Positions 8,838-50,406 of a stretch of DNA of 56,369 nt are shown here, in pieces. The notes under the pieces are model-generated. The model was not told where the DNA came from. It was given only the letters and a program-made list of their open reading frames with translations, and did no database searches. The stretch's first letter is position 1. Each line of letters opens with the position of its first letter. The translations under genes were made by a program, and so were the position numbers. Source of the stretch: Clostridia bacterium (GTDB lineage: Bacteria > Bacillota > Clostridia > Christensenellales > UBA1242); contig JAQVYC010000003.1 in assembly GCA_028708805.1 (NCBI GenBank), positions 1 to 56,369 of the forward strand, written 5' to 3'.

Positions 8838-9111
8838 TGAAATATTTGTTAATTATCTTTAAAAGCTTACCATAAATTTTTAGAAATCGGTATCCATTAA
8901 AAGCTTGCTTGTTTTTTCTGAACCTATATTCAAAAATTTTCTCTACAAATAATATATCTCTATTTTTTGTTTTTTTATTATAATGTGAATTTTATTTATT
9001 TCGTTTTGTTGCCATTCATCATTTAAGGTTATAACTTTTTTCTAAGTGTAATTCACCTATGGCTTTTTGAGGCAAAAAGGCGCAAGGTCATTATTAAAAC
9101 TTTTAAGGAAT

Positions 9112-10188: not shown

Positions 10189-11061
10189 ATGAAAAAATCT
10201 GAAAATGCGTGGAAAGAACAAGATATATTTGACTTATTCAAACTTGTGGAAAATAACAGAAGGGAAAACAAGGCACTTGTGAAAGCTTTTGAAAAATATG
10301 CTAAAATTTCAGGTCGCAAGAAAAATAGTGTTAGAAATTTTTATTATAAAAAACTAAAAGAGTTTGAACAAGATACCGAAAGTGTAAAAAAATATAAAAT
10401 AAATTTATCTGTTCACACAAAAAATGAACAAAAGTTTTTCACTCCCGAAGAAGCCGAACTTAGCATTAGAAAAATTGAAGACTTATTAAAAAAGGGCTAT
10501 TCTGTAAGAAAAGCTTGTTATGAAGTTGCAAGTGGTGATGTAAAGCAAATGCTTCGGCTTCAAAATAAGTTCAGAAGTACAAAACAAAAAATAAGTGATT
10601 ATCTAAGCCTAGATAAGTCTAACAAAAGAACTTTTTCTGGCGATAGTAAAACTTCTAATTCTAACAACGATAACAAAAGCAATCTTTTAATTATGCCAAA
10701 CACCAAAACGGTTTTAACCGACAGCGAAATAAACAGTTTGTTTATGGGGTTGGTTAAACTGGTAAAAAAAGTCGCAAAGGAACAATGTGATTTAGATCTT
10801 ATAAATCAAATGCAATCTGCTAATGCTGAACTTCGAAGGTCTATAAAGTCGCTAGCGGATAAAGAGCGAGAAATAAAATATTTTCGCAAAAAATTTGATT
10901 TGTTAACAAATGAAAAAACCAAATTAAAAGAGGAATTGAATTGCTTGCGGTCGCAAAATGCGGAACTTCTAAAAATTGATGATTCCCCTATTAAGTTTAA
11001 TAAACTAAAAAACTATATTGACAAGCTTGGCAAAAAAACAAAAGCAAAAGAAACAACTTAA
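10189..11061 (+). CDS. hypothetical protein with N-terminal Myb/SANT-like (RsfA-like) helix-turn-helix and C-terminal coiled coil
   Basis: SD aggaga lies 6 nt before the ATG. The N-terminus AWKEQDIFDLFKLV...AFEKYAKISGRKKNSVRNFYYKKLK follows the AW-x3-D...AFE...GR...R.F pattern of RsfA-type regulators. The C-terminal heptad-rich segment is LINQMQSANAELRRSIKSLADKEREI... Confidence 0.45.
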   Translation: MKKSENAWKEQDIFDLFKLVENNRRENKALVKAFEKYAKISGRKKNSVRNFYYKKLKEFEQDTESVKKYKINLSVHTKNEQKFFTPEEAELSIRKIEDLLKKGYSVRKACYEVASGDVKQMLRLQNKFRSTKQKISDYLSLDKSNKRTFSGDSKTSNSNNDNKSNLLIMPNTKTVLTDSEINSLFMGLVKLVKKVAKEQCDLDLINQMQSANAELRRSIKSLADKEREIKYFRKKFDLLTNEKTKLKEELNCLRSQNAELLKIDDSPIKFNKLKNYIDKLGKKTKAKETT

Positions 11062-11133: not shown

Positions 11134-11190
11134 TTTTTTTAAGTGAGAACTTCTTCAACCAATTTGTTGCTTAGGTAGCTTTTGTTTCTC
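11134..11190 (+). repeat. intergenic hairpin repeat, degenerate copy A
   Basis: TTTTTTTAAGTGAGAACTTCTTCAACCAATTTGTTGCTTAGGTAGCTTTTGTTTCTC aligns with the family consensus TTTCTAAG.GAGAACTTATCYAACC...GATTTGTTTG. Confidence 0.45.
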
Positions 11191-11241
11191 TCACATCTTG
11201 CACTAAAATTTATCCCTAAATTAAACAGTAAAATAAATAAT

Positions 11242-11269
11242 AAAAGCCAAAGGTATTGCTTTGGCTTTT
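11242..11269. terminator. bidirectional intrinsic terminator between convergent genes
   Basis: Perfect 11-bp stem AAAAGCCAAAG/CTTTGGCTTTT with a 6-nt loop and A/T runs on both sides. It lies between the 10189..11061 gene (+) and rsmH (-). Confidence 0.7.
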
Positions 11270-11277
11270 ATTATTAT

Positions 11278-11315
11278 CTGACAACTTATCTAACCAAATT
11301 AATTACGGTTAGATT
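11278..11315 (+). repeat. intergenic hairpin repeat, copy B
   Basis: CTGACAACTTATCTAACCAAATTAATTACGGTTAGATT. The arms ATCTAACC/GGTTAGAT are perfectly complementary around an AATTAATT-containing loop. Confidence 0.7.
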
Positions 11316-11399
11316 AAAACTCATCTGCCCTTTTAAATTAATTCTTGTAAGAGTTTTGCACCTGCTTAAAATGTTTAATTCATAATCAATTATGTTGTA

Positions 11400-12472: not shown

Positions 12473-15400
12473 TTATGGCAACAATGTCTCAACTTCATCA
12501 AAAATTTCTAACCAACTATAATTTGATAAACTATCACCAAATTCTCCACCTTCAAGTATTGACACAATTAAAACAACAATTTCATCATCTGTATTGCTTT
12601 CATCGGTTAAATAGTTCGCCAAAATTTGATATGACCCTGCAAAAATTCCGCTACTATTAAATTCATATTGCAACTGTTCAAGTAGCTGTGTCAAGTTTTG
12701 TTTTTGATTTGTAAAGTCATTTTTTATTTCGTCTAGACTTGCAATGGTCTTAAACGGTTTAGCCTTATTAATAAGGTTAATTATATCTTGAGATTCATTT
12801 GTTAAATCCGTACTCATACTTACAATGTTAGAATCATAACTTGCATCAATTAAATTGATTAAGCCTTTATTTAATTCGTTTATCAAATCAACTGCTCGGT
12901 CTCTTAAAAGCTTACTCGTTAACAACACTTCTATTATAACATTTTCTTCTTCAAGATTATTGTCAAATATAGGCTGTATACTCATCTCATTAACAATCAA
13001 TTCTAATAGAGAAGTGTCATTCACTGAATCAATTATTTCATTGTCTGCAAATATAATAGCATTTTTTAATATCTGCATTTCACTTAACCAAAAACCATCT
13101 GTGTAATTGTCGCTTGTAGCAAAATGCAAGTTGAAAATATCGCCTAAATAAAATTCAATTAAGTTATCATAGATTGTATATGTTAAGCCCCCATTTTCAT
13201 AGGTGAACAAATTCATTGTGGCAAATATATCTAAAATTCTACCAAGGTCATCTGCGGTGTTAGAAAAATTTTCGTTAACCAAAATTAAATAACTAGCTAA
13301 ATCTTCTAAGTTCTGCACATTGCCATTTTCTAAGATATTAATGCAATATTTTGCAATTTGTTTTATCTCATCACCAAAAGTATTCCACCCTAACCAGCTA
13401 ATACTCTTGTCTACCCTGCCCATTTCAGCATCTGGTGTTTCTAAGTATTCCAGTGCCTCATTAAACAATTCAACAAACACTAATTTGAAAGCATCTGACG
13501 CAACTAGCCTATCTAAAACAACATCCATTCGAGTGTTGGTTCCATTATCTAAAACTTTTAAATAATCAATTATAGAAGTTATATTAGAATAATCATTGCT
13601 TTTAATTGAGTCAATTAAGCCTGCTTTCCCTATTATAGTAACCGCATCATAGATGCCCATAATCTCACTTTTTAGCTGAGAAATATAACTATAACTCTGG
13701 CTGAACTCGGTTTTAATTTTGGTTAAGATATTTTGCAAATCTAAGCTTAATGCAGTTTTTTCTAAAAGCAAGTCTATAACACCAAACTTAACAGCTCCGA
13801 CTATTTTTGTATCTAAGACCGAATTTAAAAGAGTTTGTATGTTTGCATAATCTAGATTTTTAAAAACAGTTACTTCACCTATCTCAGTTTTATAGTAATT
13901 GTAAATGTCTATCAAAGCAGAAGTTTCGGTTTCCCAATTCACATTATTTAGTAAAGAGAAATTTACATATCCCCCATATTCGCTATTATTTAGTTCTGTC
14001 AGCACTTGCAAGAATATATTATTGTTATTAACTGTATCTTTTACAAGTGTGGAATCTTTTATTATGTTCAACAACTTGCCTGATTGAGATAACATAAGCT
14101 CAACATTCATTCCATCAATAGGCATATCAATTGTATAATCTTTTACTTCTGTGTATAAACTTATAAGGTTTTTTATGATGCTTAACAAATCGGTTTTTAA
14201 ACTGGTCCAATTAACCGTTGTGGTTGATACCCTGTCTAACACAACTTCGGTTGCTGTGCCACCACTGATTTCTTCTTCCGTATTATTTAATAAAAATAAT
14301 TGATTTTCAAGCTCTTCAACTAATAAGTTCACGGCCCCCACTGTTACATTTTTCAATGTTGGAGACTTGAATAGATTCTCTAAAATATCGGAAGCTAATT
14401 CATAATCATTTAATTGAAGCAAATTTAATATAGCTGTTTCATCTAATGTGGGAGAATCAATTAAACTAATAAATCCACTTTGGGCTAAAACTTTTAAAAC
14501 ACCAACCGCCGCCAACAAGTCTTGTTCTAGCACGGATGCACTTTCTGAATCTCCCACGGAGCTATTTAATATATTAAGCAAACTTTTTATCTGACTTTCA
14601 TAACCAGTACTGCTGAAATCTTCGTTTTTTTCTACTTCATCTAAATAAAATTGCAAAACTTCAACTCCGACCGACCTGAATACTCCTGATTTAAACATAG
14701 TTTTGACTGCTGTTTCAAGCCTGTCAAAATCAAAGGTTTCATATTCTAAATTTTCGAAATCAAGCGTTGTTAAATAAGCCACATTTTCATAGATTTCATT
14801 AAATGTAGAAACTTCATCCCGCAAACTAATTCGTTGGTTTGAAACATATACCGTAGAAAGCCCATCAAAAATAGCAAGGTCTATGCCACCAGTACCAAAA
14901 ATTTTAACCGTAAAACTATTTGAGTATGCTTCAATATAGCCAAATATTTCTGGACCAACAGCATCTCTTATTATGCCTCCTATTTCACTGCCCGCTCCTT
15001 CTTCAGCATAGACAATTGATTGTGCGGAAACTGTTTCATTATCTAAATTGTTTAAAATTGAAATAAAGCCACTGATAGGCAGAAGTGTTAAAAATAGAAG
15101 AATTGCCGATTGTAACGCACTCACAACCCCGCCCCAAAATCCATTCTTTTTTTCTCTAACTTGTGTAATAATAATAGGTCGTCCGTTTTGAACAGTGTAA
15201 GCCTCATCCGAAAATTGTTGGATAGGTCTGTTTTTTCTTTTTCTTATACTTGCAGCAATCGCATAGATTATCCAGCTTAAAAACTTAAAAACATATACCA
15301 AAATTACAAACACAAACACATTTACGGCTAATGCTGGTAATTGATACACTAAGCTTTGAATTGCAGGGCTAGCATTATATAGTTCAGCAATAGATTCTTG

Positions 15401-15646
15401 TGAAGTAATAAGCGATACTATATATTCTTTTATAGTTACATTATTCCCATCAATATAAACACTTATATCCAGTAAGCTATTACTTATAATGCCTGAAAGC
15501 AAAGCAGCAAAGACAACTCCACCTAAAAACAAAATCAGTCGAAGCACACTGTTTTTTAATCCCCTCCCTAAACCCCATAAAAAGCCAAATAACAAGAAAG
15601 TTATTAACAAAACATTTAAAGCCACTGTAATATAAAAAGCTTCCAT
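12473..15646 (-). CDS. large membrane-anchored protein with CvpA-like N-terminal transmembrane region
   Basis: 1057-aa ORF with SD gtgagg upstream. The N-terminal ~200 aa carry several TM helices with a CvpA-like start (FLLFGFLWGLGRGLKNSVLRLILFLGG). The rest is a long L/N/I/D/E-rich soluble region with no recognised domain. Confidence 0.6.
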   Translation of the reverse strand: MEAFYITVALNVLLITFLLFGFLWGLGRGLKNSVLRLILFLGGVVFAALLSGIISNSLLDISVYIDGNNVTIKEYIVSLITSQESIAELYNASPAIQSLVYQLPALAVNVFVFVILVYVFKFLSWIIYAIAASIRKRKNRPIQQFSDEAYTVQNGRPIIITQVREKKNGFWGGVVSALQSAILLFLTLLPISGFISILNNLDNETVSAQSIVYAEEGAGSEIGGIIRDAVGPEIFGYIEAYSNSFTVKIFGTGGIDLAIFDGLSTVYVSNQRISLRDEVSTFNEIYENVAYLTTLDFENLEYETFDFDRLETAVKTMFKSGVFRSVGVEVLQFYLDEVEKNEDFSSTGYESQIKSLLNILNSSVGDSESASVLEQDLLAAVGVLKVLAQSGFISLIDSPTLDETAILNLLQLNDYELASDILENLFKSPTLKNVTVGAVNLLVEELENQLFLLNNTEEEISGGTATEVVLDRVSTTTVNWTSLKTDLLSIIKNLISLYTEVKDYTIDMPIDGMNVELMLSQSGKLLNIIKDSTLVKDTVNNNNIFLQVLTELNNSEYGGYVNFSLLNNVNWETETSALIDIYNYYKTEIGEVTVFKNLDYANIQTLLNSVLDTKIVGAVKFGVIDLLLEKTALSLDLQNILTKIKTEFSQSYSYISQLKSEIMGIYDAVTIIGKAGLIDSIKSNDYSNITSIIDYLKVLDNGTNTRMDVVLDRLVASDAFKLVFVELFNEALEYLETPDAEMGRVDKSISWLGWNTFGDEIKQIAKYCINILENGNVQNLEDLASYLILVNENFSNTADDLGRILDIFATMNLFTYENGGLTYTIYDNLIEFYLGDIFNLHFATSDNYTDGFWLSEMQILKNAIIFADNEIIDSVNDTSLLELIVNEMSIQPIFDNNLEEENVIIEVLLTSKLLRDRAVDLINELNKGLINLIDASYDSNIVSMSTDLTNESQDIINLINKAKPFKTIASLDEIKNDFTNQKQNLTQLLEQLQYEFNSSGIFAGSYQILANYLTDESNTDDEIVVLIVSILEGGEFGDSLSNYSWLEIFDEVETLLP

Positions 15647-15719: not shown

Positions 15720-15903
15720 TCAAAAACAAATATATGAAGTGAAAAGTTTCAGAAAAACATAATAAATAAAAGTAAACAAGTCGAAATAAAAGAAATTATA
15801 TTCTATAAACCAATATTAGCATTGCTCATATTAACAAAAATAACAGCATTAAAGAGTAACTTATCTTGCTCTTGTGCTAATAAAATAGAAAAAGCAGAAG
15901 CTC

Positions 15904-15953
15904 CTCTAACAAATTTAACCGTAATTAATTTGGTTAGATAAGTTCTCACTGTA
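15904..15953 (-). repeat. intergenic hairpin repeat, tandem copy C1
   Basis: Minus strand reads CAGTGAGAACTTATCTAACCAAATTAATTACGGTTAAATTTGTTAGAG. It is near-identical to copy B over the core. Confidence 0.7.
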
Positions 15954-15982
15954 AGGTTTTGGTTAAAGAAACACAAGTTCGG

Positions 15983-16028
15983 CAAACAAACCTCGCCGTA
16001 CTTGATTCGGTCGGATTATTCTCCCTAG
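15983..16028 (-). repeat. intergenic hairpin repeat, tandem copy C2 (decayed)
   Basis: Minus strand reads CTAGGGAGAATAATCCGACCGAATCAAGTACGGCGAGGTTTGTTTG. It is colinear with the family, but the hairpin arms are largely mismatched. Confidence 0.5.
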
Positions 16029-16042
16029 AAGAAATCCTAGCT

Positions 16043-16097
16043 CAAACAAATCCAGCCGTAATTAATTCGGTTGGATAAGTTCTCTCTTAGAAAAAAA
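16043..16097 (-). repeat. intergenic hairpin repeat, tandem copy C3
   Basis: Minus strand reads TTTTTTTCTAAGAGAGAACTTATCCAACCGAATTAATTACGGCTGGATTTGTTTG. The arms pair as ATCCAGCC/GGTTGGAT on the + strand with one G-T pair. Confidence 0.7.
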
Positions 16098-21660: not shown

Positions 21661-22374
21661 ATGTTTTACTTAACTTACTATTTAATGGGGCTTGTTCTTA
21701 TCCCCGGAATCATTTATGCAATTGTTGTTCAAAACAAAGTTAACAACACATTCAAAACTTATCAGAAGGTGCAAAGTATTAAGGGTGTAAACGCTCAAGA
21801 TACTTGCAAGAAAATTTTACAAAACGCAGGAATCACAGATGTGGAAATTGTTAAAACAAAAGGGTTTTTAACAGATAATTATAATCCTAAAACAAAGGTT
21901 TTAAGTCTTTCCGAAGGTGTTTATGGTTCCACCTCAATAAGTGCGTTGGGTGTTGCCGCTCACGAAGCGGGGCATGCAGTTCAGCACGCAGAAAATTATG
22001 CTCCGTTGAAATTAAGAAAGGTTATGGGAACTTTAAGCACAATTACATCTCGTCTTTTATGGCCACTTTTGATTATTGGAATTTTGCTTTCGGCATTTTC
22101 TTCTCTCTATTTGGGGGAAATCTTTCTTTGGGCAGGTGTGGCTTTCTTTGCCATTTCCGTTATTTTCTCGTTAATTACTTTACCAGTTGAGTTCAATGCT
22201 TCTAAAAGGGCAATGTCTTCTCTTGTTAGTGTTGGGGCATTAGATGAAACAGAAGTTAAAGGGGCAAAGGTTGTTTTAAATGCTGCCGCACAAACATATG
22301 TGGCCGCTTTGGTTGTTGCAATTTTATCTTTTTTAAGATTTTTCTTAGCAATATTAATATCAAGAAATGATTAA
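21661..22374 (+). CDS. yugP: YugP-type membrane zinc metallopeptidase
   Basis: 237-aa ORF with the HEAGHAVQH zinc motif, flanking TM helices and the conserved LITLPVEFNASKRA block. It is colinear with Bacillus YugP as I recall it. Confidence 0.85.
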   Translation: MFYLTYYLMGLVLIPGIIYAIVVQNKVNNTFKTYQKVQSIKGVNAQDTCKKILQNAGITDVEIVKTKGFLTDNYNPKTKVLSLSEGVYGSTSISALGVAAHEAGHAVQHAENYAPLKLRKVMGTLSTITSRLLWPLLIIGILLSAFSSLYLGEIFLWAGVAFFAISVIFSLITLPVEFNASKRAMSSLVSVGALDETEVKGAKVVLNAAAQTYVAALVVAILSFLRFFLAILISRND

Positions 22375-22520
22375 GAACTTCAATACAACTTTGTTTTAGT
22401 TAATTATGCACTGAACTAACTTTGTTATTAATTATGTTTAACAACTTTAATTCGCATTAAAAGTTTTATCACTTTAAAAAGAGCAAGTAATTTGCTTTTT
22501 TTTATTGTTATGATTTTTAA

Positions 22521-22572
22521 TTTCTAAGAAAAAACTTATTTAGCCAAATTAATTATGGCGAGATTTGCTTGC
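22521..22572 (+). repeat. intergenic hairpin repeat, copy D
   Basis: TTTCTAAGAAAAAACTTATTTAGCCAAATTAATTATGGCGAGATTTGCTTGC, with arms ATTTAGCC/GGCGAGAT (7 of 8 pairs including one G-T). Confidence 0.6.
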
Positions 22573-22598
22573 AGAGCTTTTTATAATCTATATAAAAC

Positions 22599-23357
22599 TT
22601 AAAAAAACTTCGTTCTGCGTGTAAGACCCGTCCAAGCAAACAAGGCTCTGAAAAAGTCTCCGACATATGTTTTTCGTGCAGATTTTAAAAACTTTTTAAC
22701 CAACAAAATTTGATTTTCAGGTAAAACTTTATATTTCCTTAACAACCTTATGGCAAGCTCTGAGGCATCTTTTTCAAGTTTTATTGTGATATATTTCAAA
22801 ATTAATGCAACTAAAAATGATATAAAAATTAATCCTACTGCTATTAAACTATATGTTAAATAATTGAAAACGGCAAAAGAAATTGCTAATATCATTAAAG
22901 GATAATTTAACATTCCTAAAACTTTAAGTACTCTTGACATTCGGTAATTTTTTATTAATTGTTTTGAATTTTTAAAGTGCTGTAATGCATGCCCCATTTC
23001 GTGAGCCGTGATTGCTAGGCTTGCAATACTATTATTATTAGCCACTTCCTCGGTTAAATTTAAAGTTCGATTCTTTGTTGAATAACTGCAATTTGCCGAA
23101 TTCTGTTCTTCTATTATATTAACATTTAACAATCCGTCAAACTCCTGTAAATTTAAAAAATTTACCAAAGTAAGTGCTGTCCCGTTATATTCTGTTGTTG
23201 TTTTTTTCATTTTTTCAAACTGAAACATAAACGAATCATAAGAGTAATTTGCAAGAGTGATTGCCAAAAGCACAAAAAGTACAATTGCTCCGATAATTAT
23301 AAATAAATAATATTCTTGAATTATAGAAAGTAAATCCATATATTTATTGTAAGCCAT
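22599..23357 (-). CDS. divergent YugP-like membrane zinc metallopeptidase paralog
   Basis: 252-aa ORF with HEMGHALQH, an N-terminal TM helix and C-terminal TM helices. It has the same architecture as the convergent yugP gene but low sequence similarity. Confidence 0.65.
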   Translation of the reverse strand: MAYNKYMDLLSIIQEYYLFIIIGAIVLFVLLAITLANYSYDSFMFQFEKMKKTTTEYNGTALTLVNFLNLQEFDGLLNVNIIEEQNSANCSYSTKNRTLNLTEEVANNNSIASLAITAHEMGHALQHFKNSKQLIKNYRMSRVLKVLGMLNYPLMILAISFAVFNYLTYSLIAVGLIFISFLVALILKYITIKLEKDASELAIRLLRKYKVLPENQILLVKKFLKSARKTYVGDFFRALFAWTGLTRRTKFF

Positions 23358-23602
23358 AATAACCTTTTTAGCAATTATATGTATAATATTAGCTTGAAAT
23401 ATATAAATAATTGTGTATAATGAATAATAATAATAAAATTAAAGTTAATTTTAATGAAATTGAAGTTTATTTAAAAAATTTGGCTTTAAAATCAGTTTTA
23501 AAAAGCAAACAAAAAAGGTTATTGGCTTTCTTTTTAAATAGCACCAAAAATTATAAGCGTGCTAATATATTTTAAACCAAACAATAATACTGAATAGAAA
23601 CA

Positions 23603-24982
23603 ATGTTTGCATTAATTAATAAAAAAGATATTTATGGAGTTAAAGTGGAAAATATTTTAAAAACAATTAAAGAAAACAATTTAATATCTAAGGGGGATAT
23701 CATTGGCGTTGCCGTTAGTGGTGGCAGCGATTCTATGTGCTTATTGCATTATTTACATAGCCTATCTAGCGAAATGGATATTGAAATTGTTGTTATTCAT
23801 ATTGACCATGGCATTCGTTCGAATAGTTCAGAAGATGCCCGCTTTGTTCTTAATTTTTGCAAAAAAAGAATGATAAGGTCTTATAAGTTTAAAATTGATG
23901 TACCAAAACTAATTTTACAGAAAAAAATGTCATTAGAGCAGGCCGCCCGAGAAGCCCGTTATGGTGTTTTTGATGCTCTCATAAAAAAGGGTGTTGCAGA
24001 TAAAATTGCAATTGCTCACAATTCAAGGGACCAAGCCGAAACAATTTTAATTAATTTATTTCGTGGAACAGGTGTTGTAGGAGTTAGCGGTATGGATGTT
24101 ATTCGTGGCGCCTATATTCGCCCTATGTTAAACACTTCCAAAAAATCAATTTTCGAATATATAAGCAATAATGATATTCCGTTTGTTGAAGATGAAACGA
24201 ATAAAGATAATTCTTATTCTAGAAATCATATAAGAAATTTAATTCTTCCACTTGTTGAAGAAAAATGGCCCGATGCGGTAGATAAAATTGTAAACTTTGG
24301 CAGAGATTGCTATGAAGATAATGCTTACATATCTGGGCAAATTATAACTGATGCAATTATTTATGAAAATAAAACGGCAAAAATACCTCTTACCTATTTT
24401 TTATATCCAAATGCAATTGTTTCTAGAATTATTTTTAAAGCTCTTGGAAAAATTGATGTGAATAAAGACATTGACCGAGTTCATATCCAAATGATTAAAA
24501 ATCTTGCCCAGCATGGCGAAAATGGCAAAAAAATAAATTTGCCTTTAAAAATCTCTGTTTATAAAGAATATGATTATGTTACGATAACAAACCGCCAAAA
24601 AGATGAAGTTGATTTAAAAGTGCCTTTTAAGTCAGGAAGTTTTGATGTAGAAAATTTTGGAACGGTTACAATAAGGCGAGTAAAAGATTTTTTAAATGAT
24701 ACTTTAGGAGAAGGTGAACTGCTTGTTGACACTAAAAAAATACCTAAAACGGCAGAGTGGAGATTTAAACAGAATGGGGATGTTTTTCATAAATTCGGCA
24801 GTGGCACAAAAAAGCTTAAAGATTATTTTATAGACAAAAAAATTCCGTCAAGATTAAGAAATACAATTCCCGTTTTAGCTAATGAAAATGAAGTTCTTAT
24901 TATTGCTGGAATTGAAATTAGTGAAAATGTTAAAGTGGACCAAAACACAAAAACAGCCTCAAAAATTACCGTTATCAAATAA
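23603..24982 (+). CDS. tilS: tRNA(Ile)-lysidine synthase
   Basis: PP-loop GVAVSGGSDS, then the HIDHGIR block and a C-terminal TilS domain. The true start may be the GTG at 23645, which has a ggag SD. Confidence 0.9.
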   Translation: MFALINKKDIYGVKVENILKTIKENNLISKGDIIGVAVSGGSDSMCLLHYLHSLSSEMDIEIVVIHIDHGIRSNSSEDARFVLNFCKKRMIRSYKFKIDVPKLILQKKMSLEQAAREARYGVFDALIKKGVADKIAIAHNSRDQAETILINLFRGTGVVGVSGMDVIRGAYIRPMLNTSKKSIFEYISNNDIPFVEDETNKDNSYSRNHIRNLILPLVEEKWPDAVDKIVNFGRDCYEDNAYISGQIITDAIIYENKTAKIPLTYFLYPNAIVSRIIFKALGKIDVNKDIDRVHIQMIKNLAQHGENGKKINLPLKISVYKEYDYVTITNRQKDEVDLKVPFKSGSFDVENFGTVTIRRVKDFLNDTLGEGELLVDTKKIPKTAEWRFKQNGDVFHKFGSGTKKLKDYFIDKKIPSRLRNTIPVLANENEVLIIAGIEISENVKVDQNTKTASKITVIK

Positions 24983-25073
24983 AAAAATTAAGAAAATGTA
25001 CAAAATTCTAATATAAAAGGTATAAAATATTAGAAATCTATATACAAACTGGACTAAAATAGTTGTCTGTTGT

Positions 25074-25090
25074 TGTGGAAATGTGGATAA
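25074..25090. promoter_or_regulatory. DnaA-box doublet 1
   Basis: TGTGGAAA abuts TGTGGATAA. The second box is a perfect TTATCCACA on the complementary strand. Confidence 0.75.
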
Positions 25091-25177
25091 CTTCTTGTTT
25101 TTGGCATATTTTTAAAACAAATTGTTTAATTTTGAACAGAATTCATAAATATTAGTGAGAATGTATGAATATGCAGC

Positions 25178-25194
25178 TGTGGAAATGTGGATAA
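25178..25194. promoter_or_regulatory. DnaA-box doublet 2
   Basis: An identical 17-mer TGTGGAAATGTGGATAA lies 104 bp from doublet 1. The wider shared context is the 19-mer TGTGGAAATGTGGATAACT. Confidence 0.75.
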
Positions 25195-25450
25195 CTTTTT
25201 CAACACTGCTTTTTGCCTTGTTAATCAACCCTTTCTTCTATTTTAAAAAATTATCTCTTGCAAAGTTTTATAATTTAGGCTAATTTTTTGTTTATGTTTA
25301 TACGATAAGTTTTTGAAATATAGACAAAATAGAATTCTCGTCAAATCAAACCATACGTCTTATTTTAAAAAAAACAATAATTTAAAGTCTTTTTTAGCTT
25401 TTTGTTTATAAATCTTTAAAAAGCGAAACAATCAAAAATGTAAGTTATAT

Positions 25451-25479
25451 TTGACTTTTTTAGATACTTCACTTACAAT
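25451..25479 (+). promoter_or_regulatory. candidate sigma-A promoter for hisS
   Basis: TTGACT, a 17-nt spacer, then TACAAT, ~25 nt upstream of the hisS SD (aggag). Confidence 0.45.
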
Positions 25480-25503
25480 AATTAAAAATAACTAGGAGTT
25501 TTT

Positions 25504-26799
25504 ATGCAAAAAGCAAAGGCCAGAACACTTTCAGGCTTTATGGAATTATTACCTCAAAAACAAATTATCTTTAACCAAATGAAAGATAAAATTATATCTG
25601 TTTTTAAACTTAACGGGCTTGCACCTATGGATACGCCTGTTTTAGAATATAGCGATGTTTTATTGGCGAAAGCAGGTGGCGAAACTGAAAAACAAATTTA
25701 TCAGTTTAATAAAGGTAGCACAGATTTATGTATGCGTTTTGACCTTACTGTTCCTTTCGCTAAATATGTTTCACTTTATCAAAACGAATTGACATTTCCA
25801 TTCAGACGATATCAAGTTGGTAAGGTTTTTCGTGGAGAACGAGCTCAAAAAGGTCGGTTTAGAGAATTTTATCAATGTGATATAGATATTATTGATAATG
25901 AAAAGCTATCTCTTCACTCTGATGCTGAGTGTATTGATATTTTAAGTCAGGTTTATGACGCCTTGGAACAACCTATATTAATAAAAGTAAATAACCGTAA
26001 AATTATTAACGGTCTACTTGAAAATTTTAAATTAACAGAAAAAACAACCGAGATTTTAATTTTGCTAGATAAGAAAAGCAAACTTGATAAAGAATTGTTT
26101 TTAGCTGAATTTAATAAAATAACGCCTATGGCTTCCGAAATTATTGAAATTTTAAACAGCGACACTCCACAAAAGCTAGCAGAGTTTAATATAACAAATA
26201 AAACATTTTTGCAAGGCATAAGCGAAATTCAAACTATTTTTAAAATTTTGCAACTTTTAGAAGTAAAAAATGAAATAATTTTTGATTTATTTACTATTCG
26301 AGGACTAGCTTATTACACAGGCACTGTTTTTGAAGCCTTTTTGAAAAATATTCCTGAACAGTCTTCTGTTAGTGGTGGAGGGCGATACGATAACTTAACC
26401 GAAAGTTTTTCAAATAAAGGCTTTTATGGAGTTGGCATTAGTATAGGCTTAACGCGACTTTTTGATTTGTTAGATAAAAATAATTTGTTAGAATTTTCTA
26501 AAACAACCACAACAACGCTGGCACTTATTCCCTTAACCAATATCCAAGAATTAACGAATCATTGTTATGGTTTGTCTAAGCAATTAAAAAATAATGGAAT
26601 TAACACCGAAGTTTTATATTTTGAAAAAACTTTTAAAAATAAATTAAATTATGCCAATAAAAAGAAAATACCATTTATAATTGTTGTAGGAGATGACGAA
26701 ATTCAAAACGGTAGTTATTCTCTTAAAAATATGGAAACAGGCGAAACTGTAAACACTTCATTACAAGGTTTAATTGAATTGTTAGGAGGCAAAGCTTGA
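25504..26799 (+). CDS. hisS: histidine--tRNA ligase
   Basis: 431-aa class II aaRS with HisRS blocks MRFDLTVPFAKYV, FRGERAQKGRFREFYQCD and GGGRYDNL, plus a C-terminal anticodon-binding domain. Confidence 0.93.
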   Translation: MQKAKARTLSGFMELLPQKQIIFNQMKDKIISVFKLNGLAPMDTPVLEYSDVLLAKAGGETEKQIYQFNKGSTDLCMRFDLTVPFAKYVSLYQNELTFPFRRYQVGKVFRGERAQKGRFREFYQCDIDIIDNEKLSLHSDAECIDILSQVYDALEQPILIKVNNRKIINGLLENFKLTEKTTEILILLDKKSKLDKELFLAEFNKITPMASEIIEILNSDTPQKLAEFNITNKTFLQGISEIQTIFKILQLLEVKNEIIFDLFTIRGLAYYTGTVFEAFLKNIPEQSSVSGGGRYDNLTESFSNKGFYGVGISIGLTRLFDLLDKNNLLEFSKTTTTTLALIPLTNIQELTNHCYGLSKQLKNNGINTEVLYFEKTFKNKLNYANKKKIPFIIVVGDDEIQNGSYSLKNMETGETVNTSLQGLIELLGGKA

Positions 26800-28007
26800 A
26801 CAATAACATAAACCAAACACCTAATAAGCAAGAAATAAAAAAATCGCATAAACGAGTTTTTTATTCAAGCCCACTTCCGAAGAAAAAAAGCCCTAAACCA
26901 GAACATACGCAAAAATCGCAAAGTTCAGTTTTAGCTAATGCAAAACAAAATTTGCAAAAAAATATTTCACAAAATAAACAAGAATTAAAGACAAATATTT
27001 CACAAAATAACCAAGAACTAAAGACAAATATTTCACAAAATAAAAAACAGGCTCAGCGAGTTCCTTATGGAAAAACACAAAACTTGCCACAGGTTACACA
27101 GCCAATTCAAAAACCTCAAAATAAAACTGTTCAATTAATACAAGTTCCGCACAAACAAAACTTACCAAGCACACAACAAAATAAACAAGTTTCTCAATTA
27201 ACGCAACTTGCTAAAATCAAGCAATCTCAAATAAATCAAAATTTACAAAAACAAAATCTTAAAACTGAACAAAAATCACAACACAATCAAACTTCACAAA
27301 TTATTAAAAAATCTAATATTAAAAATTTTCAACCAAAACAACTTTTACAAGACAATCAAACTCAACTTAAATTAGATAATCAGGCTTTACAATCAAATAA
27401 ATCGCAAACAAAACAACTTACCGAACCGAAAAAAAACCTTCAAGTTGGTCTAAAAAAACAAAACAAACAAATCAATCAAGCCTCCCACCCCACTAAAACA
27501 ACACAAATAGTTAAGTCTGAGCAAGCCTCTCTTTTGGATATTTCAAGAAAATTAGACAACTTAAAAACCGACATTTCAAAAATTTCAGACAACTCAAAAA
27601 ATATATATACGAATTTTTTAAATGCAATTTCTCCTGGAATGAGCAAAGATGTACCACCTTTACTGCTTGCTTTTATTGGTGATGCCGTGCATACCTTGTT
27701 TGTGAGAACATTTTTTATAAAAAATGTGAATAGTCCTGTTGGTAAAAAGCATACTCAATGTTCTAGTTTTTGCCGTGCAAAAAGTCAGGCGGATGCCTTA
27801 GATTTTATATCTGAGTTTTTAAATGAAAACGAGCTAGATATTGCAAAGCGAGCTAGAAATTCTAAAAACCACAGCTCTTCGAAAAACACTGACCCGGAAG
27901 ATTACAGAAAAGCCACCAGTTTTGAAGCGGTTGTTGGACATCTATATATAACAAATCAAATCAATAAATTAGAATCGCTTTTAATGAAGTTTATGGAGAA
28001 AGAATGA
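26796..28007 (+). CDS. mrnC: mini-ribonuclease III with ~275-aa Q/K/N-rich N-terminal extension
   Basis: The C-terminal ~125 aa carry the Mini-III signature (LAFIGDAVHTLFVR ... RARNSKNHSSSKNTDPEDYRKATSFEAVVGHLY). The TTG start has a strong SD (GGAGG 5 nt upstream) and overlaps the hisS stop. About 275 stop-free codons precede the catalytic core. Confidence 0.75.
   Translation: MNNNINQTPNKQEIKKSHKRVFYSSPLPKKKSPKPEHTQKSQSSVLANAKQNLQKNISQNKQELKTNISQNNQELKTNISQNKKQAQRVPYGKTQNLPQVTQPIQKPQNKTVQLIQVPHKQNLPSTQQNKQVSQLTQLAKIKQSQINQNLQKQNLKTEQKSQHNQTSQIIKKSNIKNFQPKQLLQDNQTQLKLDNQALQSNKSQTKQLTEPKKNLQVGLKKQNKQINQASHPTKTTQIVKSEQASLLDISRKLDNLKTDISKISDNSKNIYTNFLNAISPGMSKDVPPLLLAFIGDAVHTLFVRTFFIKNVNSPVGKKHTQCSSFCRAKSQADALDFISEFLNENELDIAKRARNSKNHSSSKNTDPEDYRKATSFEAVVGHLYITNQINKLESLLMKFMEKE
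26961..27046 (+). repeat. 33-bp in-frame tandem repeat (about 2.6 units) inside the mrnC extension
   Basis: AATATTTCACAAAATAAACAAGAATTAAAGACA is repeated, encoding NISQNKQELKT / NISQNNQELKT / NISQNKK. Confidence 0.85.
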
Positions 28008-28729
28008 ATATTTATGGAAAAAATGCCATAGCCGAGGCTTTGGACAGTGTTACAATTAATAAACTTTTTATAGATAAGAATATGCCTTTCGACAAATATA
28101 ATCAAAAAATAATTGATGATGCTAAGCGAAAAAATGTTAAAGTGTATTTCGAGTCTAAAAATGTTTTAAGTCAAAAATGTGGAAGTGTAAAGCATCAAGG
28201 CTTTGTTGCGGAGATAACCGAATTTGTTTACAGTGAAACCGAAGATATTTTAAAAATTGCTGAGAGCAAAAATGAACAGCCTTTTATTTTGGTTTTAGAT
28301 GGCATTACCGACCCGCAAAATTTAGGGGCAATAATTAGAAGTGCTGAATGCTTTGGTGTGCATGGAATTATAATTCAAAAGGACCGAGCTTGTTCCATAA
28401 ATGAAACTGTTTATAAAACAAGTGCTGGGGCTATAAATAATATGTTAATTGCACGAGTTGTAAACCTAAACCGAGAAATTGAGTATCTGAAAAAGAACAA
28501 TGTTTGGATTTACGGCTTTGAACTAGGCGGAGAAGAATTATCTAAAACCAAGCTAGATGGAGCTTTGGCTTTGGTTATTGGTAGTGAAGGTAAAGGCATT
28601 CGTCAACTTGTAAAAGAAAATTGTGATTTTGTTGTCTCAATTCCAATGAAAGGGGCAATAAATTCCTTAAATGCTAGTGTTGCAACAGGTATTGCTCTTT
28701 ATGAAGTTACAAGACAAAAAGCATCTTAA
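28004..28729 (+). CDS. rlmB: 23S rRNA (guanosine-2'-O)-methyltransferase, SpoU/TrmH family
   Basis: 241-aa ORF with motifs DGITDPQNLGAIIRSAECFG, LVIGSEGKGIR and SLNASVATGIALYE. It overlaps the mrnC stop and is syntenic with Bacillus mrnC-yacO. Confidence 0.88.
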   Translation: MNIYGKNAIAEALDSVTINKLFIDKNMPFDKYNQKIIDDAKRKNVKVYFESKNVLSQKCGSVKHQGFVAEITEFVYSETEDILKIAESKNEQPFILVLDGITDPQNLGAIIRSAECFGVHGIIIQKDRACSINETVYKTSAGAINNMLIARVVNLNREIEYLKKNNVWIYGFELGGEELSKTKLDGALALVIGSEGKGIRQLVKENCDFVVSIPMKGAINSLNASVATGIALYEVTRQKAS

Positions 28730-28825
28730 ATTTTTAAAATTTTCTTCAAGTGAAATCAAGTTTCTTTAAACTGGCAAACTTGAAAGATTTAATCTTAAAA
28801 ACAAGATATATAAAATTCAAGCTAG

Positions 28826-29464
28826 GTGATAATGAATTTAGAAAAAGAAAAATTAAGTGATGAAGAAAACATCATAAGATATCAAAACGGCAATGAGAAT
28901 ATCATTGATTTTATCTTTTTTAAATATAAGAACTTAGTGCATAGTATTGCAGGCAAATATTATCTTAATGGTGCAGAGCCTGATGACTTATTACAAGAAG
29001 GAATGATTGGCTTATATAATGCGTGCAACAGTTTTAATTCATCTATGAATAAATCTTTTAAATCATTTGCTTATCTTTGTATTGAAAGACAAATTCAAAG
29101 TGCAGTAAAATCTGCAAACCGCCAAAAAAACATAGTTCTTAATAATGCATTATCACTTAACAAACAATTTGGATTAACACATCAAAAAGATGACGAGCAG
29201 GGTGAAGAAGAAACGGCAAAATCTCTTCCATCCCCCGACCCAACTCCCGAAGATAAAATAATTGAAGAAGAAACTTATCTTGAAAGATTAAAACAAATTC
29301 GGCAAAGCCTTTCTGATTATGAATTTAAAATTTTGAAGCATTACATAAAGGGTTATAAATATGAATATATTGCTGAATTAATTGACAGGGACTTTAAAAG
29401 TATTGACAATGCAATAACCAGAATTAAAACTAAGTTAAAGTTTTTGAAAAATTTAAAAAAATAA
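28826..29464 (+). CDS. sigH: RNA polymerase sigma factor SigH-like (sigma-70 family)
   Basis: Region 2 (DDLLQEGMIGLYNACNSFN...FKSFAYLCIERQI) and region 4 (YIAELIDRDFKSIDNAITRIKTKL) are colinear with Bacillus SigH. It sits in the conserved position after mrnC-rlmB. The start could instead be the ATG at 28832. Confidence 0.8.
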   Translation: MIMNLEKEKLSDEENIIRYQNGNENIIDFIFFKYKNLVHSIAGKYYLNGAEPDDLLQEGMIGLYNACNSFNSSMNKSFKSFAYLCIERQIQSAVKSANRQKNIVLNNALSLNKQFGLTHQKDDEQGEEETAKSLPSPDPTPEDKIIEEETYLERLKQIRQSLSDYEFKILKHYIKGYKYEYIAELIDRDFKSIDNAITRIKTKLKFLKNLKK

Positions 29465-29480
29465 AACAGACTATAACGAA

Positions 29481-29510
29481 ACGAAAATAACGCAATTTTT
29501 TCGTTTTTTT
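29481..29510 (+). terminator. intrinsic terminator after sigH
   Basis: Stem ACGAAAA/TTTTCGT with a 10-nt loop, followed by a T-run. Confidence 0.5.
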
Positions 29511-29603
29511 GTTTTCTTTTATACAATTTTATGAAACACTATTCATTTTTTTGTTAAAATATGTTAAACTATACTATAATAATTTTAGAAAAAGGAATTA
29601 TAT

Positions 29604-30401
29604 ATGGAAGGTAAAACTTATACAGCAAAAATGGGTATTGGGAGCTATGTATTAATTCTTCTTGTTATTGCGGGAGTTTCCGCATTAGCATTATTTCTTT
29701 TTTTGCCTAAAACAAATTATCAATCTGCATTTAATAATGTTTATAATATTCAAGATAGTTATTACCAAAAAAACATAAATAATAAAAATGTTGATGAATA
29801 CCTAAATATTATTTTAGACATAGATAATATTTCGACTTATCATTCAACTCAAATTAATTTATACAGCAAAATTTTAAGTATTTTAAACCTGTCTAATATA
29901 TATTGTATGAATGCCTTAATGGTGATTGACCCACAAGCCGAATACAATGATTTAGTTTTTAAGCAAAAAACTTCTTTGGATGAGTTTTTAAAAACAAAAA
30001 GCGAGCTTTCTACCCACCTTACTTTTAATATGAGAGAACTATTTAATAATCCTACTTTAAATCAAACAACAGTAAGTGAATATGTTGCTCCTTTTATAAA
30101 TAAATTTAAAAAGCTTGTTGAAGAATATGCAAGTTTCTATTATAAAACCGCACGCCTTATTAATGACGGAACTCTTCGTGGAATTGAAAACAATGAACTT
30201 ACCATAACGGCAAACCGTGAAATAAATTTAGCCATTAGTCGTATTTTAAATGTTTCTGATATCTATAATTGTTTTAACTATGTAAATTCTCTTCAAAGCC
30301 ACGCAACGATAATGTATGACGAAGATTTCTACCTTGAATATTACAACGGTGGTTATTCAGTTAACGATGTTATTAATATTTTAGGAGATATTTGCCCTTA
30401 A
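29604..30401 (+). CDS. membrane-anchored hypothetical protein
   Basis: 265-aa ORF with a single N-terminal TM helix (SYVLILLVIAGVSALALFLFL). The remainder is helical and N/Y-rich, with no recognised domain. Confidence 0.5.
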   Translation: MEGKTYTAKMGIGSYVLILLVIAGVSALALFLFLPKTNYQSAFNNVYNIQDSYYQKNINNKNVDEYLNIILDIDNISTYHSTQINLYSKILSILNLSNIYCMNALMVIDPQAEYNDLVFKQKTSLDEFLKTKSELSTHLTFNMRELFNNPTLNQTTVSEYVAPFINKFKKLVEEYASFYYKTARLINDGTLRGIENNELTITANREINLAISRILNVSDIYNCFNYVNSLQSHATIMYDEDFYLEYYNGGYSVNDVINILGDICP

Positions 30402-30429
30402 TAAAAAAACAAAAAGAAAAGGATACTCA

Positions 30430-31350: not shown

Positions 31351-31403
31351 AGCCACATTTAAATTAATTTTTTAAACAAAGAATTGAATTTGTTTAATTT
31401 AAA

Positions 31404-31431
31404 AATCCAGCTGTTAATAATCAGCTGGATT
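31404..31431. terminator. bidirectional intrinsic terminator
   Basis: Perfect 10-bp stem AATCCAGCTG/CAGCTGGATT with an 8-nt loop and A/T runs on both sides, between convergent genes. Confidence 0.7.
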
Positions 31432-31459
31432 AATTTATTATTTAAATAATAAAATAAGT

Positions 31460-32155: not shown

Positions 32156-32226
32156 ATTTCCATTTTAACAAATATATTTAAATTGTCAATTTTAGATATT
32201 GTTTTTAAGAAGTAAAGTTTTATCTT

Positions 32227-33318: not shown

Positions 33319-33583
33319 TACACTCTACTTTTTTAAGTTGGTTTTTATTTTTAATATTTGTTTTTTATTTAATAATTTAATTTTAGCAAAATTTAATATT
33401 TTTGTAAACAAAAATCAAATTTATGTTATTTTGTATTTTATTTAAATTTAATTTTATTTATTTTATTTTTATTATAAATTTATTTTTTTAATAAAATATT
33501 AAAAATCTTTAAATAAGGCACTGCGAAAATTATCACATTAACTCATCAATCTTTATGACATTTTATTTTTAAGTCTGTAATTA

Positions 33584-50310: not shown

Positions 50311-50362
50311 TTTTTTTCTAAGTGAGAGCTTATCCCACCGAATTAATTATGGCTGGATTTTT
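50311..50362 (+). repeat. intergenic hairpin repeat, copy E
   Basis: TTTTTTTCTAAGTGAGAGCTTATCCCACCGAATTAATTATGGCTGGATTTTT is very close to copy C3 (16043-16097, opposite strand). Confidence 0.65.
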
Positions 50363-50406
50363 AATAAAAGCAATTTTTTCATTATGTGTTAGAAATGATA
50401 ATATTA

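What the first reader, a model, noticed from the sequence alone, without database searches (positions are those of the whole stretch)
15904..16097. Unassigned ~50-nt hairpin repeat family: three tandem copies behind helD plus at least four dispersed intergenic copies
Seven intergenic sites share a ~50-nt unit when read on the strand of the gene that ends just upstream. The approximate consensus is TTTCTAAG-N-GAGAACTTATC-YAACC-RAATTAATTAY-GGYTRGAT-TTGTTTG. The copies are at 11134-11190 (degenerate), 11278-11315, 15904-15953, 15983-16028, 16043-16097, 22521-22572 and 50311-50362. The three copies at 15.9-16.1 kb are head-to-tail with starts 79 and 60 nt apart. A possible truncated relic lies at 9036-9073. 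The centre of the unit is a hairpin with 8-nt arms around an 11-nt loop containing the palindrome AATTAATT. The arms are perfectly complementary at 11278 (ATCTAACC/GGTTAGAT). At 16051-16077 both arms differ from that copy and still pair (ATCCAGCC/GGTTGGAT on the + strand, one G-T pair). At 22536-22562, ATTTAGCC/GGCGAGAT keeps 7 of 8 pairs. The 15983 copy has decayed. All copies lie outside CDSs and all have the same orientation relative to the upstream gene end (10189..11061 +, helD -, yugP +, and the decayed ORF at 49.99-50.16 kb +). I do not recognise it as a named REP/BOX/RUP/MITE element, a riboswitch, a tRNA fragment or a CRISPR repeat. It could be a REP-like mobile palindrome, a 3'-UTR stabiliser or processing site, a protein-binding site or a small-RNA family.
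Basis: seen in the sequence. Interest (0 to 1): 0.7.

Follow-up and report, generated by a model that had tools for sequence, protein, structure and literature searches.

The report
Lineage-specific intergenic hairpin repeat family
A roughly 55-base hairpin-containing DNA repeat is scattered through the gene spacers of an uncultured low-GC Clostridia bacterium; it behaves like the small "selfish" intergenic repeats (REP, SPRITE, MITE-like) known from other bacteria, so it is real and new in sequence but ordinary in kind.

Summary
Five well-preserved copies, one decayed copy and one internally deleted copy of a ~55-nt unit (TTTTTCTAAG-N-GAGAACTT-ATCYAACC-RAATTAATTAY-GGYTRGAT-TTGTTTG) lie in four intergenic spacers, three of them head-to-tail behind helD. 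The proposed relic at 9036 is not supported.

The family matches no Rfam model. It has no true match in GTDB species genomes, JGI metagenomes, viral contigs, phages or plasmids, and no match in the literature searched.

Strains 96-99% identical keep the copies unchanged. A syntenic genus-level relative has one copy in ~40 kb where the window has six in ~37 kb. Two occupied spacers are empty there, and the third holds a copy in the opposite orientation with a different loop.

The claimed compensatory arm changes are not above shuffle controls, and only about half the hairpins fold better than shuffled sequence. The "same orientation as the upstream gene" rule is uninformative at two of the four loci.

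Best reading (about 0.55): a non-autonomous, slowly proliferating interspersed palindromic repeat. It is closest in kind to pneumococcal SPRITE and to REP elements, and may double as a weak terminator. No transposase is visible in the window, and the rest of the genome could not be reached. It is a new member of a known kind, of modest interest.

The parts
16040..16095 (-). Copy c16050, the best-preserved unit and the first after the helD stop. On the + strand the arms are 16050-16057 and 16069-16076, and the loop is 16058-16068.
   Evidence: cmsearch 75.4 bits, E 8.5e-13. nhmmer E 5e-17. Folds at -12.2 kcal/mol (z -2.3) on the - strand and -14.2 kcal/mol (z -4.1) on the + strand.
15980..16035 (-). 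Copy c15983, the decayed middle unit of the tandem array. Its loop is GAATCAAGTAC and its arms are ATCCGACC/GGCGAGGT.
   Evidence: cmsearch 52.4 bits. nhmmer E 6.6e-5. Its fold is no better than shuffles.
15903..15958 (-). Copy c15913, the third unit of the array. Its arms are ATCTAACC/GGTTAAAT, with one C.A mismatch on this strand that is a G.T pair on the other.
   Evidence: cmsearch 66 bits. 100% identical over 29 nt to c11285.
11269..11324 (+). Copy c11285, with a perfect 8-bp hairpin. The 5' TTTCTAAG-GAG part is missing, and the copy sits 8 nt after a strong bidirectional terminator.
   Evidence: cmsearch 63.1 bits. Fold -9.5 kcal/mol, z -4.05.
11134..11185 (+). Copy c11134, a derivative that keeps the 5' half (TTTTTTTAAGTGAGAACTTCTTCAACCAATT) and the tail but has lost about 15 nt of loop and 3' arm.
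   Evidence: nhmmer E 0.0016 for model positions 3-29. cmsearch 21.8 bits, E 0.059. Sequence read.
22519..22574 (+). Copy c22535, between the convergent yugP paralogues. Its arms are ATTTAGCC/GGCGAGAT, with one G.U pair and one mismatch.
   Evidence: cmsearch 66.8 bits. Conserved, with an identical core, in a 96.5% identical strain (L146).
50313..50368 (+). Copy c50329, about 70-125 nt upstream of the umuC/dinB-like gene. Its arms are ATCCCACC/GGCTGGAT, with two mismatches.
   Evidence: cmsearch 68.5 bits. 92% identical over 50 nt to c16050.
11236..11275 (.). Context only: a strong bidirectional intrinsic terminator immediately 5' of c11285. It is not part of the repeat.
   Evidence: Terminator scan. 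Fold -21.4 kcal/mol, z -5.4.
22476..22502 (+). Context only: the yugP terminator hairpin with its T-run, about 20 nt 5' of c22535.
   Evidence: Fold -10.6 kcal/mol, with an A-tract, stem and T-tract.

Best explanation
The sites are copies of a short (about 55 nt), non-autonomous interspersed palindromic repeat that is specific to one uncultured low-GC Clostridia lineage.

**Anatomy**
- A conserved 5' leader (T-run, CTAAG-N-GAGAACTT).
- An 8-9 bp stem whose middle positions vary.
- An AT-only loop, AATTAATTA, which is invariant in the five good copies.
- A T-rich tail (TTGTTTG).

**Shown**
- The family multiplied in the window's lineage after it split from its nearest sampled relative.
- Copies landed only in spacers, mostly just beyond gene 3' ends and sometimes next to an existing copy, giving head-to-tail clusters.
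- Copies then decay neutrally, through point changes in the stem and internal deletion.

**Inferred**
- Copying is done in trans by an enzyme encoded elsewhere in the genome. This enzyme recognises the folded hairpin and its leader on single-stranded DNA, as for REP/RAYT or IS200/IS605-derived elements. A MITE-type cut-and-paste or copy mechanism is the alternative.
- Once in place, a copy that is read through from the upstream gene can act as a weak extra terminator or 3'-end hairpin. This would be a side effect, not the reason the family exists.
For: **Multi-copy, strictly intergenic, far above chance**
-.

**Sub-family structure**
- c11285 and c15913 are 100% identical over 29 nt. c16050 and c50329 are 92% identical over 50 nt.
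- The unpaired first loop base co-varies with the stem variants. This indicates descent from different source copies, not structural constraint.

**Decay series**
- Intact, point-mutated (c15983) and internally deleted (c11134) copies all occur.
- Only 3 of 7 hairpins fold better than shuffled sequence.

**Lineage-specific expansion**
- The syntenic relative is SAHD_10000022 (72% amino-acid identity on the neighbouring 1057-aa protein). It has 1 copy in 39.6 kb, against 6 in the matching ~37 kb of the window.
- Its helD spacer is 184 bp with no copy, against 495 bp with three, while the promoter-proximal ~180 bp aligns well.
- Its rsmH spacer has no copy.
- Its yugP spacer has one copy at a different distance and in the opposite orientation, with a different loop (GAGCTTAATTTT).

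**Absent everywhere else**
- 0 hits in GTDB species genomes and in JGI metagenomes with the invariant-position pattern.
- 0 hits in 1.31 Mb of family-level relatives.
- No true hits in a looser metagenome scan or in viral contigs, phages or plasmids.

**Precedent**
- The same pattern (abundant in one species, reduced in the sister, absent beyond, slow turnover between strains) was the argument for a parasitic origin of the pneumococcal BOX, RUP and SPRITE repeats (PMC3049150).
Against: - No transposase, RAYT or IS is encoded in the 56-kb window. The rest of the genome could not be reached.
- No consistent terminal inverted repeats or target-site duplications were found.
- There is no presence/absence polymorphism among strains 96.5-99.8% identical, nor among five samples of the relative. 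Activity, if any, is therefore slow or extinct.
- The genome-wide copy number is unknown, because only 56 kb was seen.
- The invariant loop in the five good copies is more conserved than the stem. This could instead point to a host function that reads the loop sequence.
Confidence: 0.55

Rival explanations
1. The unit is primarily a host cis-element at the RNA level. It would be an intrinsic terminator, or a 3'-end protective or processing hairpin, that has been duplicated to several gene ends. Transcription from the upstream gene folds the 8-9 bp stem, and the UUGUUUG tail promotes release or blocks 3' exonucleases.
For: - All copies are co-oriented with a gene ending upstream.
- The stems carry 4-5 G-C pairs, and the 7 nt after the stem hold 4-5 T in 6 of 7 copies.
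- Ordinary terminators of this genome have similar AATCC...GGATT stems: 31395-31450, the valS terminator at 53254-53281 with T7, and the L082 rsmH spacer.
- The helD, 290-aa and 274-aa genes have only weak upstream terminators or none.
- The pneumococcal SPRITE repeats are a precedent for terminator-like repeats possibly co-opted at CDS 3' ends (PMC3049150).
Against: - The loop is 9-11 nt, outside the usual 3-8, and no copy's central (main) hairpin is flagged by the terminator scan, although the scan does call two small alternative stems that overlap the 3' arm and tail of c15983 (15998-15980, -) and c22535 (22558-22572, +).
- Half the hairpins are no more stable than shuffled sequence.
- c11285 and c22535 sit directly behind strong canonical terminators, so they would rarely be transcribed from upstream.
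- A terminator needs neither a conserved loop nor a 20-nt conserved leader.
- The orthologous gene ends in the relative lack the element.
- Three in a row behind helD is unnecessary for termination.
Confidence: 0.2
2. The repeat spread without any dedicated mobility enzyme. Local tandem duplication (slippage) and ectopic recombination or gene conversion between spacers would do the copying. In that case it is a passive dispersed mini-satellite, like mycobacterial MIRU loci.
For: - Two of the four loci hold head-to-tail copies.
- There are no TIRs or TSDs, no transposase in the window, and no insertion polymorphism among close strains.
Against: - Dispersal to at least four unlinked spacers up to 39 kb apart, on both strands, and a copy in the opposite orientation in the relative, are hard to obtain by slippage or conversion alone.
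- Flanks outside the ~55-nt core are not shared, whereas recombination would normally carry them along.
Confidence: 0.1
3. The duplex form is a binding site for a dimeric DNA-binding protein (a regulator, nucleoid protein or partition-type protein). The protein would read the two 8-bp half-sites ATCYAACC/GGYTRGAT, whose centres are 19 bp apart.
For: - The core is a 27-bp near-palindrome with a conserved AT-rich centre.
- One copy lies about 70-125 nt upstream of an SOS-type polymerase gene.
Against: - The half-sites themselves are the most variable part, while the spacer is invariant, which is the reverse of what an operator shows.
- Two loci lie between convergent genes where there is no promoter to regulate.
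- The conserved flank is asymmetric.
- The element is absent from orthologous spacers of the relative.
- There is no polarity with respect to the replication origin, and no match to DnaA boxes.
Confidence: 0.07
4. Each copy is a small RNA gene or part of one. The family would be a set of trans-acting sRNAs whose self-complementary AAUUAAUU loop makes kissing contacts.
For: - The loop is conserved and self-complementary, and the unit is oriented.
- Three copies (c11285, c15913, c16050) form perfect 9-bp stems, counting G.U pairs, on the strand antisense to the upstream gene.
Against: - The promoter scans place no sigma-70-like site at any copy.
- There is no Rfam relative.
- Decayed and deleted copies are tolerated, and there is no conservation at orthologous sites in the relative.
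Confidence: 0.04

Closest known systems
[quoted passage not shown] 2011, PMC3049150)
   Same: - It is a small interspersed repeat in a Firmicute, made of a stem followed by a T-rich tract.
- It is found close to and downstream of CDS 3' ends, and co-oriented with them.
- It is abundant in one species, sparser in the sister species and absent beyond.
- It turns over slowly between strains.
- No own transposase is known, and no TSD is found (for the pneumococcal side; for this family).
- Like BOX, units can be tandemly repeated within one locus.
   Different: - There is no detected sequence similarity (no Rfam match; the published SPRITE/BOX/RUP models themselves were not available to compare).
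- The stem is 8-9 bp, not 18 bp, and the unit is about 55 nt.
- The loop is large (9-11 nt) and invariant in sequence, and there is a conserved 5' leader.
- No boxA/boxC-type terminal modules were found.
REP elements / REPINs mobilised by RAYT transposases (Bertels and Rainey 2011, PMC3116915)
   Same: - It is a short imperfect palindrome confined to extragenic space, present in many copies and sometimes clustered.
- It is predicted to fold as a hairpin in ssDNA or mRNA.
- It is non-autonomous, with lineage-specific sequence classes.
   Different: - REPINs are inverted doublets. Here the clusters are head-to-tail, and single units are the rule.
- The conserved GTAG-type 5' tetranucleotide (from my own knowledge) is absent.
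- No RAYT is seen in the window. By my recollection, which was not tested, RAYTs are mainly proteobacterial.
MITEs (for example Correia elements and RUP)
   Same: It is AT-rich, non-coding, intergenic, structured and non-autonomous.
   Different: - MITEs are defined by terminal inverted repeats and target-site duplications (PMC3049150). Neither is detectable here.
- The unit is shorter than most MITEs.
Canonical intrinsic (Rho-independent) terminators
   Same: It has a G-C-containing stem followed by a T-rich tract downstream of genes. The stem base AATCC/GGATT is like that of bona fide terminators of this genome.
   Different: - The loop is too long and is sequence-conserved.
- The leader is conserved.
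- The copies share descent.
- Several copies sit behind a real terminator.

Membership tests
REP / REPIN-RAYT system | Short imperfect palindromes, in many copies, restricted to extragenic space | tested here: met
   7 copies in 9.8 kb of spacers and none in 46.5 kb of coding DNA. The genome-wide number is unknown.
REP / REPIN-RAYT system | The replicative unit is an inverted doublet of REPs (REPIN) | tested here: not met
   Both clusters (11134/11285 and 15913/15983/16050) are head-to-tail, and the other copies are singlets. Definition from PMC3116915.
REP / REPIN-RAYT system | A cognate RAYT (IS200-like HUH transposase) gene in the genome, typically flanked by REPs | not testable with these tools
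   No such domain appears among 43 window ORFs scanned against Pfam. The other contigs of the MAG could not be fetched.
MITE | Terminal inverted repeats | tested here: not met
   No inverted 7-mer or longer recurs at the unit ends across copies. Only c50329 has a 9-bp flank pairing, with chance p of about 0.05 per copy.
MITE | Target-site duplications flanking each copy | tested here: inconclusive
   No consistent direct repeat was found. T-rich motifs resembling the 5' TTTTTCTA recur about 25 nt 3' of some copies, but T-runs are common in these spacers.
MITE | A parent IS with matching ends in the same genome | not testable with these tools
Intrinsic terminator | Stable G-C-rich stem, a 3-8 nt loop, and a U-tract immediately 3' | tested here: inconclusive
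   The stem is 8-9 bp with 4-5 G-C pairs, and the tail has 4-5 T in 7 nt in 6 of 7 copies. The loop is 9-11 nt, however, and no copy's main hairpin is called by the scan; the only calls overlapping a copy are small alternative stems at c15983 and c22535. Hairpin energies are -5.5 to -12.3 kcal/mol in the window copies (-17.3 for the relative's copy), and 4 of 7 are no better than shuffles.
Any Rfam RNA family | Score at or above the family's gathering threshold | tested here: not met
   Only two tRNAs pass in the whole window. The best sub-threshold hits over the copies score 24-28 bits against thresholds of 48-60.
CRISPR array | Near-identical direct repeats at a constant period with unique spacers, usually with cas genes | tested here: not met
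   The periods are 79 and 60 nt, the middle repeat is about 65-70% identical, solitary copies lie elsewhere, and there are no cas domains in the window.
SPRITE-type terminator-like interspersed repeat (functional analogue, not homologue) | An interspersed repeat with a stem and a U-rich tract, enriched just downstream of and co-oriented with CDS ends, and restricted to one species group | tested here: met
   with the description in PMC3049150. Homology to SPRITE itself was not tested, because no SPRITE model was available.

The most novel reading that the evidence does not exclude
The hairpin is a sequence-specifically read substrate. Its stem may vary, but its self-complementary AAUUAAUU loop and 20-nt leader are fixed. 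This would mark either the recognition element of an undescribed single-strand DNA transposase or recombinase system in a deep-branching, uncultured low-GC Clostridia lineage, or a new cis-RNA motif (for example a processing or loop-loop kissing site at mRNA 3' ends). In either case the spread through spacers would be maintained by the host.
Probability: 0.12. Interest if true: 0.55.

Novelty: new member of a known kind. Interest (0 to 1): 0.3.

Why it matters
If the main reading is right, this adds one more lineage-specific family to the catalogue of small bacterial interspersed repeats. It comes from a poorly sampled Clostridia group whose closest RsmH match among GTDB species representatives is only about 60% identical at the protein level.

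Practical value:
- Gene callers place spurious ORFs across the array (48 aa in the sister MAG, 82 aa in a Logan contig), and these should be masked.
- The copies are useful strain or species markers.
- A full-genome census could point to the enzyme that moves them.

It does not open a long-standing question. It would become more interesting only if the invariant loop proves to be read by a new enzyme or RNA-binding factor.

Tried and rejected
- **CRISPR-like mini-array.** Rejected: the period is irregular, the repeats are divergent, solitary copies exist, and there are no cas genes.
- **DnaA-box cluster (TTATCCAAC versus TTATCCACA).** Rejected: the copies are not among the 24 sites within one mismatch, and these are no more than chance overall.
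- **Polar element tied to replication direction.** Rejected: both orientations occur on the same side of the dnaA/GC-skew minimum.
- **Small protein-coding gene.** Rejected: the ORF across the array is 82 aa in L149 but is split by a 2-nt indel in the window, and the reading frames differ between copies.
- **Whole-unit long palindrome, TIRs or TSDs.** Not found.
- **Insertion always behind a canonical terminator.** This is clear only at c11285 and c22535, weak at c16050, and absent at c11134, c50329 and the L082 copy.
- **Phage or plasmid origin.** There are no matches. The 54 viral-contig pattern hits lack complementary arms and flanks.
- **Metagenome hit L088.** It has perfect arms, but it lies inside a long open reading frame and is treated as a chance hit.
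- **The 53250 and 31395 hairpins.** These are ordinary terminators with a similar stem base, not family members.
- **The 9036 relic.** Not supported.
- **Reaching more of the same genome.** The attempt failed.

Full report
**Source and setting**

The window is a 56,369-bp contig of an uncultured 'Clostridia bacterium' MAG. Its proteins are identical to MDD4685818, MDD4685820 and MDD4685825. GC content is 29%. It spans rpoC and rpoB, rsmH, a helD-like helicase, two yugP-type peptidases, tilS, hisS, recF, dnaA, dnaN, rnpA, yidC, jag, an umuC/dinB-like polymerase and valS. No transposase, integrase or cas gene is present. The closest RsmH among GTDB species representatives is only 58-60% identical, from Christensenellales-like gut MAGs.

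Yes.
None is expected in shuffles.
- A profile HMM of the five gives E-values of 1e-12 to 1e-17. It recovers the decayed copy at 15982-16030 (6.6e-5) and the 5' half of a copy at 11136-11162 (0.0016).
- A covariance model gives the same ranking.
- In ungapped register the shared block runs from about 17 nt before CTTATC to about 38 nt after it, so the unit is about 55 nt. Similarity outside this block is weak.
- The three copies behind helD are head-to-tail, as described.
- The 11.1-11.3 kb spacer also holds two copies in the same orientation. The first has lost about 15 nt of loop and 3' arm.
- An all-against-all comparison of the spacers shows this is the only substantial spacer repeat in the window.
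- The proposed relic at 9036 is not supported.

**Structure**

- The 8-bp stem can extend to 9 bp through the first and last loop bases.
- As RNA, c11285, c16050 and the relative's copy fold clearly better than shuffles. c15913, c15983, c22535 and c50329 do not.
- Counting pairs over seven sequences, 86% of cells pair, against 84% after shuffling. Two pairs show double changes, against 2.1 expected, and the covariation score is reached by 159 of 500 shuffles. The 'compensatory' changes are therefore not evidence on their own.
- The variants also segregate into two sub-families, c11285/c15913 and c16050/c50329. An unpaired loop base changes along with them, which is the signature of common descent.
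- Mismatches on the 'reading' strand are mostly A.C, which are G.U on the other strand. The totals are 7 against 4 mismatches in 45 pairs, by inspection, so the folded strand cannot be assigned.
- The most conserved part is the loop core AATTAATTA, which is invariant in the five good copies. The middle of the stem varies.

**Distribution**

- The invariant-position pattern has no match in 185,579 species genomes or in 241 million JGI metagenome records.
- A looser gapped pattern gave three metagenome hits. Two lack complementary arms, and the third lies inside an open reading frame.
- The viral-contig hits are chance, and phage and plasmid collections give nothing.
- Nothing is found in 1.31 Mb around rsmH of 80 family-level relatives, by HMM or by covariance model.
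- Rfam has no family for it.
- The loop-plus-arm strings do not occur in the literature library.

**Comparison with relatives (the most informative part)**

- The sister MAG is 99.8% identical, without indels.
- Logan contigs from SRR25904989, 96.5% identical overall, keep c22535 and the whole three-copy array. The only changes are in variable positions and spacers.
- A more distant relative is fully syntenic: JGI SAHD_10000022 plus four Logan samples, with 72% identity on the adjacent 1057-aa protein.
  - In 39.6 kb of that contig there is a single copy. The corresponding ~37 kb of the window has six.
  - Its helD spacer is 184 bp rather than 495 bp. It aligns well over the promoter-proximal ~180 bp but lacks the block with the three copies.
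  - Its rsmH spacer lacks both copies and has a different terminator.
  - Its yugP spacer has a copy with perfect arms ATCTAGCC/GGCTAGAT and a 12-nt loop GAGCTTAATTTT. It lies about 100 nt from the yugP2 stop and points with yugP2. The window's copy lies 25 nt from that stop and points with yugP.
- The family therefore predates the split of the two lineages. It expanded in the window's lineage, is not tied to orthologous positions or orientations, and turns over slowly.

**What it most likely is**

- These properties match small non-autonomous interspersed repeats.
  - The closest description in the literature I could read is of the pneumococcal repeats, especially SPRITE. SPRITE is a terminator-like stem plus U-rich tract, enriched just downstream of CDSs, abundant in one species, sparser in S. 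mitis and absent elsewhere. It is judged parasitic, with slow transposition and possible co-option as a terminator (PMC3049150).
  - REP/REPIN elements are the other obvious analogue. Their defining inverted-doublet organisation is not met here (PMC3116915), and the RAYT criterion cannot be tested.
  - The MITE hallmarks, TIRs and TSDs, were looked for and not found.
- I therefore commit to 'lineage-specific REP/SPRITE-like interspersed palindromic repeat, mobilised in trans by an unidentified enzyme that recognises the hairpin'. Confidence is about 0.55. The expansion and non-orthology are shown. The mobilisation mechanism is inferred.

**Rivals**

- A primary terminator or 3'-end role is plausible as a secondary function.
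  - In favour are the T-rich tail, the co-orientation, and stems resembling bona fide terminators at 31395-31450 and 53254-53281.
  - Against it are the oversized conserved loop, the conserved leader and the weak stems.
  - Two copies also sit directly behind strong terminators, and the element is absent from orthologous gene ends.
- Passive duplication or recombination, a duplex protein-binding site and an sRNA family are less likely, for the reasons given under the rival explanations.

**Limits**

- Only 56 kb of this genome, and about 40 kb of the nearest distinct relative, could be examined.
- Genome-wide copy number, the presence of a cognate transposase and any transcript data are unknown.
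- With seven sequences, covariation cannot be tested meaningfully.

**Verdict**

This is a real, previously undescribed repeat family of a familiar kind. Interest is 0.3.

Noticed in passing
window 22000-36000; 25074-25093, 25178-25197, 25364-25384, 35144-35164: The window spans the chromosomal origin region, with recF, dnaA, dnaN, rnpA, yidC and jag, and a cumulative GC-skew minimum plateau at 22-34 kb. The only two perfect DnaA boxes lie inside a 20-nt exact direct repeat in the tilS-hisS spacer. A 21-mer from that spacer recurs inverted in the dnaA-dnaN spacer. This suggests a bipartite or displaced oriC.
   Followed up: partly
window 26796-28007 (+), repeats 26943-27047; L153 13072-13638: The RNase III-domain protein is 403 aa here but 188 aa in the syntenic relative. 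The extra N-terminal half contains 33-nt in-frame tandem repeats.
   Followed up: no
window 41983-42582 and 42937-43545 (+): These are tandem paralogues, 52% identical, with no Pfam domain. Only three homologues were found among 5.8 billion proteins, all from this lineage.
   Followed up: partly
window 12473-15646 (-): This is a 1057-aa protein immediately downstream of the repeat array; its N-terminal ~200 residues are strongly hydrophobic, so it is probably a membrane protein. It has no Pfam domain and only four homologues in the protein collection (100%, 72%, 31% and 23% identity).
   Followed up: partly
window 15803-16049 (-); L001 13765-13911; L149 4820-5068: Gene callers place a 48-aa ORF (sister MAG) or an 82-aa ORF (Logan contig) across the repeat array. 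A 2-nt indel splits it into 28 + 60 aa in the window, so it is almost certainly spurious.
   Followed up: yes
window 50439-52053 (+): The umuC/dinB-like polymerase and the overlapping YolD-like ORF are about 70% identical to thousands of proteins from many sources. Most other genes here have few close relatives. This suggests a horizontally spread SOS-mutagenesis cassette, and copy c50329 sits just upstream of it.
   Followed up: partly
window 31395-31450 and 53254-53281; L082 14250-14294: Ordinary terminators of this lineage repeatedly use an AATCCNNC...GNNGGATT stem with large AT loops (8-10 nt). This resembles the repeat's hairpin and may be where the repeat's stem came from, or convergence.
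   Followed up: partly
window 46030-46255 (+): Degenerate 12/24-nt periodic repeats encode a Q/E/K-rich low-complexity tail at the C-terminus of the DUF1538 protein.
   Followed up: no
L151 18300-23711: In the relative, the region beyond cdd carries a tyrosine integrase, an N6/N4 DNA methylase and small ORFs, so it is a likely integrated element. The corresponding side of the window ends at cdd, so its presence here is unknown.
   Followed up: no
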